From: Escherichia coli 042
Lineage (GTDB): Bacteria; Pseudomonadota; Gammaproteobacteria; Enterobacterales; Enterobacteriaceae
Reading direction: 5' to 3' (one strand)
Assembly (NCBI RefSeq): GCF_000027125.1
Contig: NC_017626.1
Length of the DNA: 64,000 bases
Made by a program: the position numbers. Of the stretch, positions 30,001 through 36,000 are shown piece by piece; position 1 is the first letter of the stretch, and each line of letters opens with the position of its first letter.

Positions 30001-33000
30001 GCTCGGCGGTGCCGCTGGAGATGAAGCAGGGGTGACTGCCATCAAATCTGCTTTTCATACAATCGGTAACGCTTGTACGGCTCTGCCCCAATGCGTTCCA
30101 GCATGTTATTCATGCCTGTATTGGTTTCGAGGATCCATGACATCTCCAGCGCATCGATCTTCCGGCGGGCAAACGGATCGCGTAAGGCTTCAATCAATAA
30201 CAGCGCAATCACCGGGCCGATGCGGCTGAACTGATACTCGTCCCGCACGCCCATCAGCGGCACTCGCGCAGTTCGCACACCGCTGACTTTCAAACGCCAC
30301 AGCAATTTTGCCCAGCCGAAGGGAAAGAGCGATCCGTTCAGATCGGCAATCGCCTCGTTGATGTTTGGCAAGCCGACAATAAACGCGCAGGGTGCAGAAT
30401 CAATCTCAGCGATGTAGATCATATCGTCCGGCACCAGATATTTAAGTTGATCGCCCATGCTCGCGAATTCATGTTCGGTAAACGGCACAAATCCCCAGTT
30501 GTGCTGCCAGCCAGAATTGAAAATCTCACGCAGGATCTGCATCTCTTCGGCAAACCGCTGGCGATTGATGCAGCGAATGGTCACCTTCTTACGCACCTGA
30601 TCCATCAGTTTTTTTAGCGCCGGAGAGAAAGTGAGACCGGTTCGCTGCATCCACCACGCCAGTAAATCAATGCCTTTGTGATAACCCAATTGTTCAATAT
30701 GCGCGGCATACCACGGTTTACCGTGCGGCATCATCGCACAGGGTGGTGTATCGAAACCTTCAATCAGTAATCCGCTTTCCTGATTGATATTCAGGCTGAA
30801 AGGACCGCTGATCTTACTTGCACCTTGTGACTTCAACCACGCTTCCGCTGCGCCAAACAACGCGGCAAAAACCTGCGGATCATCAATGGCGTCAATCATG
30901 CCGAAATGACCGGTATCTTTGCCGTAACGCTCGCGGTGCAAGGTATCGATTTGCGCGGTAATACGCCCAACTATCTGCCCCGCTTTTTTTGCCACCCACG
31001 CCTGCCAGATGATATGGTCCGTCCCCGGATTTTTCGCAGACAAATGCTCGTTGCGTTCAATGAATAAAGGGGGTATCCAGTTTGGATCGTCGGGATAAAG
31101 TGATGACGGAAAAGCGATAAATGCCTTAAGGTCATTTTTATTAATTACTTTTTCAATTTTAATCATCAGCAGATCGCATTCCATAGTTCTGTGGGTAACA
31201 AATAATTAACGGTGACAAACAGGTTGCAACAGCAACGAACGGCACCTTAATAATCAACCCAATGAATACAAACGACGAATAAATAGTATTTATTAATGAT
31301 TACGATAAGGTCAGAGACTACACAGAAGCGCCACAATGCCTTTTGTCGATTTAAGGCGACCGGACAAGGCTTCTTCTTAATACATTCATAAATTAAATAT
31401 CATTCACAATAAAAACAAAAAACTCAAACTCATTATTTAAATCAATGTTCATTTTCACACTGATGAAAATACTATCTCATTTATCTTTTATGCCTATATA
31501 ATCCACCGCATTATTGTCATTTTATTTTTGATATCCAATTTTTTCGTGGTGTATATGTCTAATAAAATCTTTACGCATTCCCTACCTATGCGCTATGCCG
31601 ATTTTCCAACGCTGGTTGATGCTTTGGACTACGCCGCTCTGAGTAGCGCCGGAATGAATTTTTATGACAGACGTTGCCAACTTGAAGATCAACTGGAATA
31701 TCAGACGTTAAAAGCGCGTGCCGAAGCTGGTGCGAAGCGGTTGTTATCGCTGAACCTGAAAAAAGGCGATCGCGTGGCACTGATTGCCGAAACAAGTAGC
31801 GAGTTCGTAGAGGCTTTTTTTGCCTGCCAGTATGCCGGCTTAGTCGCCGTCCCGTTGGCGATTCCAATGGGCGTTGGTCAGCGGGATTCCTGGAGCGCCA
31901 AATTGCAGGGTTTACTGGCAAGTTGCCAGCCCGCAGCCATTATCACTGGTGATGAGTGGTTGCCACTGGTCAATGCCGCGACGCATGACAACCCCGAATT
32001 ACATGTTTTAAGCCACGCCTGGTTTAAGGCATTACCGGAAGCCGATGTTGCGCTCCAGCGTCCAGTTCCGAACGATATCGCCTACCTCCAGTACACCTCC
32101 GGCAGCACCCGTTTTCCCCGTGGCGTCATTATCACCCATCGCGAAGTGATGGCTAATCTACGTGCTATAAGCCACGACGGCATTAAATTACGCCCTGGCG
32201 ACCGCTGCGTCTCCTGGCTGCCTTTCTACCATGATATGGGACTGGTCGGCTTTCTCCTGACCCCCGTCGCCACGCAGCTTTCAGTAGATTATTTGCGCAC
32301 TCAGGATTTTGCCATGCGTCCTCTGCAATGGCTTAAATTGATCAGTAAAAATCGCGGCACCGTTTCCGTTGCGCCGCCGTTTGGCTATGAATTGTGCCAG
32401 CGCCGCGTGAATGAAAAAGATCTCGCTGAACTGGATCTTTCCTGCTGGCGCGTCGCTGGTATTGGTGCAGAACCCATCTCCGCAGAACAACTCCATCAAT
32501 TCGCTGAATGTTTCCGTCAGGTTAACTTTGACAATAAAACTTTCATGCCGTGCTACGGACTGGCAGAAAATGCGCTGGCTGTCAGCTTCTCTGATGAAGC
32601 CTCCGGGGTTGTGGTTAACGAAGTGGATCGCGACATCCTCGAATATCAGGGTAAAGCCGTCGCGCCGGGTGCAGAGACACGCGCCGTATCGACTTTCGTC
32701 AACTGCGGCAAAGCGTTGCCGGAACATGGTATTGAAATCCGCAATGAAGCAGGTATGCCGGTCGCGGAACGTGTGGTAGGCCATATTTGCATCTCCGGTC
32801 CCAGTCTGATGAGCGGTTACTTTGGCGACCAGGTTTCGCAAGACGAGATTGCCGCGACGGGCTGGTTAGACACCGGCGACCTCGGTTATCTGCTGGACGG
32901 TTATCTGTATGTCACCGGACGCATTAAAGATCTGATTATTATTCGTGGCCGTAATATCTGGCCGCAGGATATTGAATATATAGCGGAACAGGAACCGGAA

Positions 33001-36000
33001 ATTCATTCTGGCGATGCGATTGCTTTTGTTACCGCCCAGGAAAAAATCATTTTGCAGATCCAGTGTCGGATCAGCGACGAAGAACGTCGCGGGCAGCTTA
33101 TCCACGCGCTGGCGGCACGGATCCAAAGCGAATTTGGCGTGACCGCGGCTATCGATCTGTTGCCGCCCCACAGTATTCCCCGAACGTCCTCCGGCAAGCC
33201 TGCCCGTGCGGAAGCGAAAAAACGTTATCAGAAGGCTTATGCTGCCAGTCTTAATGTGCAGGAATCCCTGGCATGAATCAAACTGTCGCGGTGACGGGCG
33301 CTACCGGGTTTATCGGTAAATATATTATCGATAACCTGCTCGCCCGCGGCTTTCACGTTCGCGCATTGACGCGTACTGCCCGCGCTCACGTCAATGATAA
33401 TCTCACCTGGGTGCGCGGTTCGCTGGAAGATACTCATTCACTTAGCGAGCTGGTTGCCGGAGCCAGCGTAGTGGTCCATTGCGCCGGGCAAGTGCGCGGG
33501 CACAAAGAAGAGATTTTCACCCGCTGTAACGTTGACGGCAGCCTGCGCCTGATGCAAGCAGCAAAAGAGAGCGGCTTTTGCCAACGTTTTCTGTTTATCT
33601 CTTCGCTGGCGGCGCGCCATCCCGAGCTCTCCTGGTATGCAAAATCCAAATACGTCGCCGAGCAACGACTGGCAGCAATGGCGGACGAAATTACGCTGGG
33701 CGTTTTTCGCCCGACAGCCGTGTATGGTCCCGGCGATAAAGAGTTAAAACCGCTGTTTGACTGGATGCTGCGCGGCCTGCTGCCACGACTTGGTGCGCCA
33801 GATACACAGCTCTCTTTTCTGCACGTCACCGATTTCGCGCAAGCAGTGGGTCAGTGGTTAAGCGCCGAAACTATACAGACGCAAACCTATGAATTATGCG
33901 ATGGCGTCGCCGGCGGCTATGACTGGCAACGCGTACAGCAACTTGCCGCCGACGCCCGTTGCGGTTCCGTGCGAATGGTTGGCATTCCTCTGCCGGTACT
34001 CACCGGCCTTGCGGATATCAGTACCGCGTTGAGTCGCCTGGCAGGTAAAGAACCTATGCTGACCCGCTCGAAAATTCGTGAATTAACCCACGCCGACTGG
34101 TCGGCAAGTAATAACCGTATTTCTGAAGATATTAATTGGTTTCCCGGGATTAGCCTGGAACACGCATTACGCAACGGGCTATTTTGATTGTCTTGTTTAA
34201 AGGTGTGTTAACGTTTCTATGGTAAATCGTGAAATAGTAATGGATTACATCCTTTCCTGTTTACAGGATTTGGTCGAAAACGGTGTGGAAATTAAGCCCG
34301 ACAGCGATCTCGTCAACGATCTTGGCCTGGAGTCGATCAAAGTGATGGATCTCTTAATGATGCTGGAAGACAGATTCGATATTTCCATTCCTATTAATAT
34401 TCTGCTGGATGTCAAAACCCCTGCGCAATTAATGGAAACTCTACTTCCATGGCTGGAGAATAAATAATGGGGCTATACGATAAATATGCGCGCCTTGCTG
34501 GCGAGCGACTGCAATTTAGTGACAACGGGTTAACACCGTTTGGCACCTGTATTGATGAAGTGTATTCCGCCACCGAAGGCCGGATCGGCAATAAAAAAGT
34601 GATTCTGGCCGGGACCAATAATTATCTCGGTTTAACCTTTAATCATGATGCCATCAGCGAAGGTCAGGCCGCGTTAGCGGCCCAAGGTACCGGCACCACC
34701 GGTTCTCGTATGGCAAACGGCAGTTATGCGCCGCACCTGGCGTTAGAGAAAGAGATTGCCGAGTTTTTCAATCGCCCTACCGCTATCGTTTTTTCAACCG
34801 GTTATACCGCTAATTTAGGCGTCATCAGCGCACTTGCCGACCATAACGCCGTGGTGTTACTGGATGCCGACAGCCACGCCAGTATTTATGACGCCTGTTC
34901 TCTCGGTGGCGCGGAAATTATTCGTTTCCGCCATAACGATGCTAAAGATCTGGAACGGCGCATGGTTCGCCTCGGTGAACGGGCGAAAGAGGCGATTATC
35001 ATCGTTGAGGGTATCTACAGCATGCTCGGTGACGTTGCGCCGTTAGCGGAAATTGTTGATATCAAACGTCGTCTCGGTGGTTATTTGATTGTCGATGAAG
35101 CGCATTCGTTTGGCGTGTTAGGCGCAACGGGGCGCGGACTGGCTGAAGCTGTCGGCGTTGAAGATGATGTGGATATTATCGTTGGCACCTTCAGTAAAAG
35201 TCTGGCCTCGATTGGCGGTTTTGCTGTCGGTTCGGAAGCGATGGAAGTGCTGCGCTACGGCAGCCGCCCGTATATTTTTACCGCCTCTCCTTCTCCGTCC
35301 TGCATTGCGACCGTGCGCTCGTCGTTAAGAACTATTGCCACACAACCAGAGCTGCGGCAAAAGCTGATGGATAATGCCAACCATCTGTATGACGGTCTGC
35401 AAAAACTGGGTTATGAGTTAAGTTCACATATTAGCCCGGTAGTGCCGGTAATAATCGGTTCGAAAGAGGACGGTTTACGCATCTGGCGCGAGCTTATTTC
35501 GCTGGGCGTTTATGTGAATCTTATCCTGCCACCTGCCGCGCCTGCAGGCATCACGCTGCTGCGCTGTAGCGTAAACGCTGCTCACAGTCGTGAGCAAATC
35601 GATGCCATCATTCAGGCATTTGCTACTCTGAAGCAGTAATGTGAGCCCGCCGTGGTGTTGCGCCACGGCGGGTTTAATGTTGTCTGTCATACCAATACAC
35701 CAGGCTCAACGCCACCAGCACAAACGCTATCGGTAAACCGAGCGCGGTAACAGGTGCGCTCAACGCAAATAGCAATCCCAGATTGACCATGATTTGATAG
35801 CTGATCCAGGTGAGTAAGCCAACGATGACACCTACAGCGAGACGGCTACCCATCCCTGGCGAGCGCGGGGCGCTAAAGGTAAACGGCACAGCCAGCAAAA
35901 TCATCGCCAGGGTCAGGATGGGTTGCCCCAGTTTTTCCCACAGTGCAAGGCGGTATTCGCTGCTGGGTTGCCCGGTTTCCTGCAAATAATGGATGTAATG

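What the first reader, a model, noticed from the sequence alone, without database searches (positions are those of the whole stretch)
31555..35639. Four lipid-synthesis genes arranged as one translationally coupled operon
The ligase stop and reductase start overlap as ATGA, the ACP stop and synthase start overlap as TAATG, and only 31 nt separate reductase and ACP. Such tight coupling suggests stoichiometric co-expression of an acyl-activating enzyme, its carrier protein and the condensing enzyme, so the pathway probably uses acyl-ACP rather than acyl-CoA.
Basis: seen in the sequence. Interest (0 to 1): 0.6.

Follow-up and report, generated by a model that had tools for sequence, protein, structure and literature searches.

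The report
E. coli sphingolipid (ceramide) synthesis operon
This is the already published E. coli gene cluster for the first steps of sphingolipid synthesis.

Summary
Four same-strand genes occupy 31555-35639, with an ATGA overlap (33273-33276), a 31-nt gap, and a TAATG overlap (34465-34469). The window is E. coli chromosome (yghO-yghT region).

The genes are:
- aasR, a fatty acyl-AMP ligase, 100% identical to PDB 3PBK
- cerR, an NAD-dependent epimerase-family protein
- acpR, a specialised ACP
- spt, serine palmitoyltransferase

cerR, acpR and spt are nucleotide-identical to BL21(DE3) ECD_02852-54. Padilla-Gomez et al. 2022 showed for those proteins that the ACP carries phosphopantetheine. They also showed that ligase + ACP + SPT together make 3-oxo-sphinganine, and that SPT prefers acyl-AcpR to acyl-CoA. 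Patil et al. 2021 showed that EcFAAL loads its ACP.

The gene order is conserved from Enterobacterales to Nitrosomonas, Nitrospira and Caulobacter. The acpR-spt junction is 5 nt or less in 73 of 80 loci. The ATGA junction is present in 13 of 14 Enterobacterales loci.

A single transcript, true translational coupling and stoichiometric expression remain inferred. No native E. coli sphingolipid has been reported. K-12 lost the locus at an IS5 insertion.

Verdict: real, correctly interpreted, already known, low interest.

The parts
30042..31184 (-). yghO: probable ceramide synthase / N-acyltransferase (the aca/bCerS counterpart), transcribed divergently from the operon
31185..31554 (.). AT-rich divergent intergenic region (31.9% GC) with a perfect TATAAT at 31497-31502 and a weak -35. 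This is the presumed promoter region of the operon.
   Evidence: GC content; sequence. The TATAAT is conserved in a divergent Escherichia locus. The consensus scan found no full sigma-70 match on the + strand here. The promoter role is inferred.
31555..33276 (+). aasR: fatty acyl-AMP ligase that works as an acyl-AcpR synthetase (EcFAAL)
   Evidence: NF006624, 872 bits against a cutoff of 600. 100% identical over 573 residues to PDB 3PBK. Published: it loads holo-EcACP (PMC8460268). AasR(Ec) works with AcpR(Ec) but not with AcpR(Cc) (PMC9386255). dN/dS 0.04.
33273..33276 (+). ATGA stop/start overlap between aasR and cerR. An AGGA lies at 33260-33263, 9 nt upstream of the ATG, inside aasR.
   Evidence: ATGA is kept in 13 of 14 Enterobacterales loci.
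33273..34187 (+). cerR (epi): NAD(P)-binding epimerase/dehydratase-family protein, the presumed 3-oxo-(dihydro)ceramide / 3-oxo-sphinganine reductase
   Evidence: Pfam Epimerase 1.5e-22, with the GxxGxxG motif at residues 8-14. It sits in the same position as Caulobacter cerR, at 33-37% identity. Nucleotide-identical to ECD_02852. dN/dS 0.14. Reductase activity has not been shown for the E. coli protein.
34188..34218 (+). 31-nt spacer between cerR and acpR. An AAGGTG lies at 34200-34205, 13 nt before the ATG.
   Evidence: The spacer is 27-31 nt in all 14 Enterobacterales loci.
34219..34467 (+). acpR: specialised 82-aa acyl carrier protein
   Evidence: Pfam PP-binding 1.5e-13. It scores below the NCBIfam housekeeping-ACP cutoffs. 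Nucleotide-identical to ECD_02853, which was shown to carry 4'-phosphopantetheine (PMC9386255).
34465..34469 (+). TAATG stop/start overlap between acpR and spt. A GGAG lies at 34455-34458, 8 nt upstream of the ATG, inside acpR.
   Evidence: The acpR-spt gap is 5 nt or less in 73 of 80 loci and overlapping in 54.
34467..35639 (+). spt: serine palmitoyltransferase (PLP-dependent alpha-oxoamine synthase)
   Evidence: NF047599, 599 bits against a cutoff of 500. E 4e-111 to Sphingomonas SPT structures, with the DADSHASIYD and GTFSKS motifs aligned. Nucleotide-identical to ECD_02854, which makes 3-oxo-sphinganine from serine and prefers palmitoyl-AcpR (PMC9386255). dN/dS 0.03.
35642..35676 (+). Strong hairpin followed by UUUAAUGUUGU, in the 34-nt gap between the convergent spt and lptG2 stops. 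Probable terminator of the operon.
   Evidence: 16-pair stem. Fold energy -35.8 kcal/mol, z -7.4. Terminator function is inferred.
35674..40596 (-). Convergent neighbour genes that travel with the operon: lptG2 (35674-36753), lptF2 (36750-37820), ytfJ-like (37851-38414), a CHAD-like 274-aa protein (38423-39247) and the yghQ MOP-flippase-like gene (39247-40596). Candidate sphingolipid modification or export module.
   Evidence: NCBIfam LptG 308 bits, LptF 318 bits, YtfJ 212 bits, and a weak MOP flippase hit. Synteny with spt is kept across Enterobacterales. Second LptF/LptG copies and a flippase are also in the Caulobacter cluster (PMC11324152). The link to sphingolipids is inferred.

Best explanation
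This is the E. coli version of the proteobacterial ceramide (sphingolipid) biosynthesis cluster.

Proposed pathway:
1. AasR, a fatty acyl-AMP ligase that cannot use CoA, adenylates a free long-chain fatty acid. It transfers the acyl group to the phosphopantetheine arm of the dedicated carrier protein AcpR.
2. Spt condenses acyl-AcpR with L-serine, with decarboxylation, to give 3-oxo-sphinganine.
3. YghO, a tandem-GNAT protein encoded divergently next door, probably N-acylates this product.
4. CerR probably reduces the 3-oxo group, giving dihydroceramide.

Expression: the four genes aasR-cerR-acpR-spt are most likely one transcription unit. It would run from a promoter in the AT-rich yghO-aasR intergenic region to the hairpin after spt. 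Ribosomes could pass directly from aasR to cerR (ATGA) and from acpR to spt (TAATG).

What is shown and what is inferred:
- Shown here or in the literature: gene identities, the sequence junctions and their conservation; ACP phosphopantetheinylation; ACP loading by the ligase; 3-oxo-sphinganine formation; the acyl-AcpR preference of SPT.
- Inferred: a single mRNA; real translational coupling; the roles of CerR and YghO in E. coli; any native lipid product.
For: Junctions and ORFs.

Origin and distribution:
- The window is E. coli. The locus is present in 4207 of 5426 complete genomes and is annotated by PGAP as fatty acyl-AMP ligase / epimerase family / ACP / spt.

Family assignments.

Identity to tested proteins:
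- The ligase is 100% identical to PDB 3PBK.
- cerR, acpR and spt are nucleotide-identical to BL21(DE3) ECD_02852-54.

Published biochemistry on those proteins:
- PMC9386255.
- PMC8460268.

Conservation:
- Gene order is kept in about 60 of 80 loci from many lineages.
- Junction spacings are kept.

Other support:
- Strong purifying selection, dN/dS 0.03-0.14.
- No internal terminator-like hairpin of note and no + strand promoter-like hit inside the four genes.
- A strong hairpin lies right after spt.
- YghO has a tandem-GNAT fold.
Against: - I found no transcript, TSS or proteomic data for this locus, so the operon and the coupling rest on sequence only.
- The consensus promoter scan found nothing convincing upstream, and its hit count equals the shuffled expectation.
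- The cerR-acpR junction is a 31-nt gap whose Shine-Dalgarno-like AAGGTG is 13 nt from the ATG.
- In many other bacteria acpR-spt stands alone, or aasR-cerR lies elsewhere (PMC9386255). The two halves can therefore work as separate units.
- BL21(DE3) with empty vectors makes no detectable 3-oxo-sphinganine (PMC9386255). The chromosomal operon is therefore silent or very weak in LB.
- I found no report of a native E. coli sphingolipid.
- CerR has no signal peptide, although the Caulobacter enzyme is reported to be periplasmic.
Confidence: 0.88

Rival explanations
1. The four genes are not one unit. aasR-cerR and acpR-spt would be two separately promoted modules, with an internal promoter in the 3' end of cerR or in the 31-nt spacer. 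Coupling would then operate only within each pair.
For: Across bacteria, acpR-spt is the universally linked pair. aasR-cerR is absent from the upstream position in about 19 of 80 loci, and lies far away in Sphingomonadaceae (PMC9386255). The cerR-acpR gap is the only non-overlapping junction and varies from -11 to 301 nt in other taxa.
Against: No + strand promoter-like site inside the four genes and no terminator-like hairpin in the spacer. The spacer is held at 27-31 nt in all 14 Enterobacterales loci. An extra internal promoter would not exclude read-through from upstream.
Confidence: 0.2
2. The locus is a cryptic, functionally silent remnant in E. coli. The enzymes work when over-expressed, but the host never makes the lipid.
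For: No sphingolipid has been reported from E. coli. Empty-vector BL21(DE3) shows no 3-oxo-sphinganine. K-12 lost the whole locus at an IS5 insertion without obvious cost. Some genomes carry IS1 or IS5 insertions within the region (H2-H6).
Against: dN/dS is 0.03-0.14 for all four genes against a divergent Escherichia lineage, with no internal stops. The locus is retained in 78% of complete genomes. The operon and its neighbours are conserved in synteny across at least 10 enterobacterial genera.
Confidence: 0.1
3. The 'synthase' is another alpha-oxoamine synthase (BioF-, Kbl- or CqsA-like) that makes a non-sphingoid amino-ketone from a different amino acid.
For: The alpha-oxoamine synthase family is hard to sub-classify. 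Many database entries for this very protein are named 8-amino-7-oxononanoate synthase.
Against: It passes the SPT equivalog cutoff, while the BioF (333 against 426), Kbl and CqsA-type models fail theirs. The best PDB relatives are SPTs. The identical protein incorporates L-[14C]serine into 3-oxo-sphinganine.
Confidence: 0.02

Closest known systems
E. coli BL21(DE3) ECD_02851-ECD_02854 (aasR, epi/cerR, acpR, spt) plus yghO ECD_02850 (Padilla-Gomez et al. 2022, PMC9386255)
   Same: It is the same locus. cerR, acpR and spt are nucleotide-identical, aasR differs at 3 residues and yghO at 2. Flanking genes are the same.
   Different: Nothing of substance. This window's ligase allele is the 3PBK allele rather than the BL21 one. 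The window also carries a KpsM/KpsT-like capsule exporter at its 5' end.
EcFAAL, PDB 3PBK (cited as Zhang et al. 2011 in PMC8460268; FAAL-ACP loading in Patil et al. 2021)
   Same: 100% identical over 573 residues. The FAAL-specific CoA-rejecting features were described on this protein, and it loads its partner ACP.
   Different: Those studies treated it as a generic FAAL model and did not connect it with sphingolipid synthesis. The term sphingolipid occurs 0 times in PMC8460268.
Caulobacter crescentus ceramide cluster CC_1165-CC_1162 (aasR, cerR, acpR, spt) with cerS CC_1154, within the 17-gene CC_1168-CC_1152 region
   Same: Same four genes in the same order on one strand. The cluster also holds a GNAT-type ceramide synthase, second LptF/LptG copies and a flippase-like gene. 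Identities to loci from Caulobacter relatives: SPT 53-55%, AasR 43-45%, CerR 33-37%, YghO 43-44%.
   Different: Junctions are looser in the Caulobacter-type loci: aasR-cerR -11 to 25 nt, cerR-acpR 76-105 nt, acpR-spt 2-3 nt. The named genes of the E. coli neighbourhood include no LCB5/DAG-kinase-type protein like CpgB, though I did not search for CpgA/B/C directly. It carries YghR/S/T P-loop proteins and a CHAD-like protein instead. Cross-species AasR/AcpR pairs are only partly compatible.
Sphingomonas paucimobilis / S. wittichii SPT (PDB 2JG2, 2W8J, 2X8U)
   Same: Soluble homodimer-type bacterial SPT. E 4e-111, aligned end to end with catalytic motifs conserved. S. wittichii SPT also prefers acyl-AcpR.
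   Different: In Sphingomonadaceae aasR is far from acpR-spt, so there is no four-gene operon.
Bacteroidetes and eukaryotic SPT
   Same: Same chemistry: serine plus an acyl thioester gives 3-oxo-sphinganine.
   Different: They use acyl-CoA directly, with no dedicated ACP or FAAL (PMC11324152). The NCBIfam CFB-type SPT model scores 340 bits, below its cutoff of 640.

Membership tests
AasR/AcpR-dependent (proteobacterial) serine palmitoyltransferase / ceramide pathway | A PLP-dependent alpha-oxoamine synthase that classifies as SPT rather than BioF, Kbl, ALAS or CqsA | tested here: met
   NF047599 scores 599 bits against a cutoff of 500. All other alpha-oxoamine synthase models fall below their cutoffs. 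The top PDB relatives are SPTs, with the PLP-lysine motif GTFSKS and the DADSHASIYD motif aligned.
AasR/AcpR-dependent (proteobacterial) serine palmitoyltransferase / ceramide pathway | A small dedicated ACP gene immediately upstream of spt on the same strand | tested here: met
   An 82-aa ORF at 34219-34467 overlaps spt by 1 nt. Pfam PP-binding 1.5e-13. It scores below the housekeeping-ACP cutoffs. The arrangement is present in all 80 related loci.
AasR/AcpR-dependent (proteobacterial) serine palmitoyltransferase / ceramide pathway | An adenylate-forming enzyme of the FAAL type that acylates the ACP and not CoA | tested here: met
   Sequence: NF006624, 872 bits against a cutoff of 600, and 100% identity to the 3PBK EcFAAL. 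The activity itself comes from the literature only.
AasR/AcpR-dependent (proteobacterial) serine palmitoyltransferase / ceramide pathway | SPT prefers acyl-AcpR over acyl-CoA | not testable with these tools
   Published for ECD_02854 (PMC9386255). That gene is nucleotide-identical to the gene in the window.
AasR/AcpR-dependent (proteobacterial) serine palmitoyltransferase / ceramide pathway | CerR: an NAD-binding epimerase/NDUFA9-like reductase in the cluster | tested here: met
   Pfam Epimerase 1.5e-22 plus an N-terminal GxxGxxG motif. It is syntenic with cerR in about 60 loci. Enzymatic activity of the E. coli protein has not been tested anywhere I could find.
AasR/AcpR-dependent (proteobacterial) serine palmitoyltransferase / ceramide pathway | A GNAT-type bacterial ceramide synthase (bCerS/aca) | tested here: met
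   [not shown]
AasR/AcpR-dependent (proteobacterial) serine palmitoyltransferase / ceramide pathway | The host actually makes a sphingolipid | not testable with these tools
   I found no report for E. coli. Empty-vector BL21(DE3) shows none.
Translationally coupled operon | Same strand, short or negative intergenic distances, stop/start overlaps | tested here: met
   The three junctions are -4, +31 and -1 nt.
Translationally coupled operon | A Shine-Dalgarno element for the downstream gene lies inside the upstream ORF | tested here: met
   AGGA lies 9 nt before the cerR ATG, and GGAG lies 8 nt before the spt ATG. This was read directly from the sequence.
Translationally coupled operon | The junction architecture is conserved in relatives | tested here: met
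   acpR-spt is 5 nt or less in 73 of 80 loci. aasR-cerR is -4 in 13 of 14 Enterobacterales loci but variable elsewhere, with a median of 6 nt.
Translationally coupled operon | One transcript, with no internal promoter or terminator | tested here: inconclusive
   The consensus scans give no internal + strand promoter and only weak hairpins, but the counts equal the shuffled expectation. No transcript data were found.
Translationally coupled operon | Downstream translation depends on upstream translation; stoichiometric output | not testable with these tools
   This needs reporter or ribosome-profiling experiments.

The most novel reading that the evidence does not exclude
Natural (non-K-12) E. 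coli and several other Enterobacterales may make a so-far undetected sphingolipid under conditions not used in the laboratory.

The conserved neighbours would form a head-group-modification and export module. They are the second LptF/LptG pair, a YtfJ-like protein, a CHAD-like protein, the YghQ flippase-like protein, and the three dTMP-kinase-like P-loop proteins YghR, YghS and YghT. This module would differ from the CpgABC route of Caulobacter.

If so, about 78% of E. coli genomes would encode an outer-membrane lipid class that is missing from the K-12 model because of an IS5-associated deletion.
Probability: 0.3. Interest if true: 0.65.

Novelty: already known. Interest (0 to 1): 0.15.

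Why it matters
The finding itself adds nothing new. The locus is annotated in RefSeq, the ligase structure was solved long ago (3PBK), and the acyl-ACP route was shown for these exact E. coli proteins in 2021-2022.

Some questions remain open and would matter:
- When is this well-conserved, purifying-selected operon expressed in E. coli?
- What lipid does it make in its native host?
- Do the co-travelling LptF2/LptG2, flippase, CHAD-like and P-loop genes modify and export that lipid?

K-12 lacks the locus, so standard E. coli lipid biology may have missed a lipid class present in most natural isolates.

Tried and rejected
- **Promoter and terminator scan of 30900-35900.** The counts equal the shuffled expectation. 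Only the hairpin after spt is notable, so the scan gives no usable promoter call.
- **Rfam over the whole window.** Nothing lies in or next to the operon, so there is no known riboswitch or leader.
- **MAFFT alignment of 300 nt upstream of aasR from 14 loci.** It is alignable only within Escherichia, so no cross-genus promoter or operator could be defined.
- **A possible natural CerR-ACP-SPT fusion, P0126, 794 aa.** I rejected it as Rosetta-stone evidence. The segment where the ACP should be is an Arg/Gly-rich stretch typical of an out-of-frame translation, so it is probably a frameshift or gene-call artefact.
- **YghO by sequence.** No Pfam, NCBIfam or PDB hit. Only the fold search was informative.
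- **PADLOC on the neighbour genes.** No defence-system hits passed.
- **Literature searches for a native E. coli sphingolipid or for transcription data on this locus.** Nothing beyond PMC9386255.
- **Link between YghR/S/T and the Caulobacter ceramide kinase CpgB.** I rejected it. CpgB is an LCB5/DAG-kinase-type protein, whereas YghR/S/T are weak dTMP-kinase-like P-loop proteins.

Full report
**1. Observation**

The region holds four consecutive + strand ORFs.
- The first ORF runs from ATG 31555 to TGA 33274-33276.
- The second starts at ATG 33273, so the two share ATGA. It ends at TGA 34185-34187.
- After exactly 31 nt, the third starts at ATG 34219. Its TAA stop (34465-34467) shares an A with the ATG at 34467 of the fourth ORF, giving TAATG.
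- The fourth ORF ends at 35639.

- The 11-residue extension is conserved in frame across Enterobacterales.
- The PGAP position is not even a start codon in Rosenbergiella, where it is ATT or ATC.
- The crystallised protein 3PBK contains those residues.

Shine-Dalgarno-like elements lie inside the upstream ORFs: AGGA 9 nt before the cerR ATG, and GGAG 8 nt before the spt ATG (read).

A very stable hairpin (-35.8 kcal/mol, z -7.4) follows spt within the 34-nt gap to the convergent lptG2.

Overlaps of 4 or 1 nt are common. In the surrounding 28.5 kb of annotation, 5 of 13 co-directional neighbour pairs have one. The overlaps alone are therefore not remarkable.

**2. What it is**

The window is E. 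coli chromosome.
- The 4.5 kb matches 4207 of 5426 complete E. coli genomes at 95-99.9% identity.
- It lies between glcC-yghO and a second lptG/lptF pair, followed by yghQ/R/S/T, pitB and gss.
- In K-12 MG1655, an IS5 (insH9) sits exactly where everything from the yghO 5' end to the inside of yghQ should be.

Family searches identify the four genes as follows.
- Ligase: fatty acyl-AMP ligase, NF006624, 872 bits against a cutoff of 600.
- Second gene: NAD-dependent epimerase/dehydratase family (Pfam).
- Third gene: a divergent PP-binding ACP.
- Fourth gene: serine palmitoyltransferase, NF047599, 599 bits against a cutoff of 500. The BioF, Kbl, ALAS and CqsA-type models all fall below their cutoffs.

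Comparison with solved structures and with BL21(DE3) gives three further points.
- The best solved relatives of the synthase are the Sphingomonas SPTs (E 4e-111), with catalytic motifs aligned.
- The ligase is 100% identical over 573 residues to PDB 3PBK, 'EcFAAL'.
- Against BL21(DE3), cerR, acpR and spt are nucleotide-identical and aasR differs at three residues.

**3. How it works: mostly already shown by others**

Padilla-Gomez et al. 2022 (PMC9386255) studied exactly these BL21(DE3) genes: ECD_02851 aasR, ECD_02852 epi, ECD_02853 acpR, ECD_02854 spt and ECD_02850 yghO/aca. They reported:
- AcpR(Ec) carries 4'-phosphopantetheine.
- Co-expression of AasR(Ec), AcpR(Ec) and SPT(Ec) yields 3-oxo-sphinganine.
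- AasR(Ec) works with its own AcpR but not with the Caulobacter one.
- SPT(Ec) extracts convert L-[14C]serine to 3-oxo-sphinganine much better with palmitoyl-AcpR than with palmitoyl-CoA or palmitoyl-AcpP.

Patil et al. 2021 (PMC8460268) showed that EcFAAL transfers fatty acyl groups to holo-EcACP. They also explained structurally why FAALs reject CoA.

The reductase is a separate matter.
- By analogy with Caulobacter, CerR reduces the 3-oxo group, probably after N-acylation, and is reported to be periplasmic there (PMC11087976).
- The E. coli protein starts directly with its Rossmann motif and has no signal peptide.
- Its activity has not been tested.

The fifth gene, yghO, has no sequence-family hit.
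- It is 41-44% identical to the homologue near spt in Caulobacter and other alphaproteobacterial loci.
- This is consistent with the ceramide-synthase role proposed in the literature.

**4. Operon and coupling: new comparative evidence**

A scan of one genome per species returned 80 loci.
- The order aasR-cerR-acpR-spt on one strand recurs in Enterobacterales, Nitrosomonas/Nitrosospira, Nitrospira, Geobacter-like, Xanthomonadales and Caulobacter lineages. The Enterobacterales genera include Hafnia, Citrobacter, Pseudocitrobacter, Shimwellia, Tatumella, Erwinia, Mangrovibacter, Pluralibacter, Cedecea, Rosenbergiella and Serratia.
- The acpR-spt junction overlaps in 54 of 80 loci and is 5 nt or less in 73 of 80.
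- The aasR-cerR junction is ATGA-type (-4) in 13 of 14 Enterobacterales loci, with a median of 6 nt overall.
- The cerR-acpR spacer is 27-31 nt in all Enterobacterales loci but very variable elsewhere.
- In a divergent Escherichia lineage the ligase has four extra C-terminal codons, yet ATGA is kept.

All four genes are under strong purifying selection, with dN/dS 0.03-0.14.

These data support selection for tight acpR-to-spt coupling everywhere, and for aasR-to-cerR coupling within Enterobacterales.

They do not prove a single transcript. The promoter scan is uninformative. The only candidate I can point to is a perfect TATAAT at 31497-31502 in the 31.9%-GC intergenic region. I found no transcript data. 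'Stoichiometric co-expression' does not follow from coupling and is untested.

**5. Caveats on biology**

- Empty-vector BL21(DE3) makes no detectable 3-oxo-sphinganine.
- I found no report of a native E. coli sphingolipid.
- The operon therefore appears silent in standard culture. Its native product and regulation are the open questions.

**6. Comparison and novelty**

This is the same locus as the published BL21(DE3) cluster, and it is a member of the proteobacterial AasR/AcpR-dependent SPT system. Every defining feature that sequence can test is met.

It differs from the Caulobacter cluster in two ways.
- Its junctions are tighter.
- Its accessory genes differ. None of the named neighbour genes is an LCB5/DAG-kinase-type protein like CpgB, though I did not search for CpgA/B/C directly. 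It carries YghR/S/T and a CHAD-like protein instead.

Novelty: already known. Interest is low (0.15).

The residual interest lies in the unexplored native product and in the co-travelling neighbour genes.

Noticed in passing
[not shown]
   Followed up: partly
window 35674-37820 (- strand): A second LptG/LptF pair, with NCBIfam equivalog scores above cutoff, lies convergent to spt. It mirrors the LptF2/LptG2 of the Caulobacter sphingolipid region and is a candidate lipid extractor for a sphingolipid. No partner LptB- or LptC-like gene is seen nearby.
   Followed up: partly
window 40642-43011: yghR, yghS (- strand) and yghT (+ strand) are three paralogous weak dTMP-kinase-like P-loop proteins, 33-46% identical to each other at the protein level. 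The triad stays next to the spt cluster in Enterobacterales, in Luteibacter/Dyella and in one betaproteobacterial MAG. It is unrelated to the Caulobacter ceramide kinase CpgB.
   Followed up: partly
L004 (K-12 MG1655) 12147-13341, versus window about 31150-39500: In K-12 an IS5 (IS5LO/insH9) replaces the 5' end of yghO, the whole aasR-cerR-acpR-spt operon, lptG2, lptF2, the ytfJ-like gene, the CHAD-like gene and the start of yghQ. The laboratory model strain therefore lacks the whole pathway.
   Followed up: yes
L045 and L049 (Luteibacter, Dyella), 10172-12345: yghQ and the CHAD-like gene lie directly downstream of spt. They are 65% and 51-52% identical to the E. coli proteins. That is closer than aasR (46%), and for yghQ closer than spt itself (57-58%), which hints at a mosaic or horizontally exchanged accessory module.
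   Followed up: no
window 1-2648 (- strand): A low-GC stretch (35-41%) holds three genes: a cytidylyltransferase-like gene (356-1051), a KpsT-like ABC ATPase (1137-1808) and a KpsM-like permease (1805-2578, below the equivalog cutoff). It is preceded by a JUMPstart element (Rfam RF01707, 2610-2648). This is the end of a capsule (kps-type) locus.
   Followed up: partly
window 22357-22578 (+), 47812-47888, 58858-58928: Rfam hits to the C0719 sRNA between glcA and glcB (297 bits), and to naRNA4/REP-type elements at two sites.
   Followed up: no
P0126 and P0045 (database proteins): Two apparent fusion proteins are probably gene-call artefacts caused by the tight junctions, not real fusions. P0126 is a 794-aa 'CerR-linker-SPT' protein whose linker looks like an out-of-frame ACP. 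P0045 is a 443-aa 'ACP+SPT' entry, 99% identical to E. coli, sitting in a eukaryote data set.
   Followed up: partly
hits H2-H6: Several clinical E. coli genomes carry an IS1 or IS5-like (ISKpn26-family) insertion inside the 4.5-kb region. This suggests occasional inactivation of the operon in some lineages. The insertion points were not mapped.
   Followed up: no
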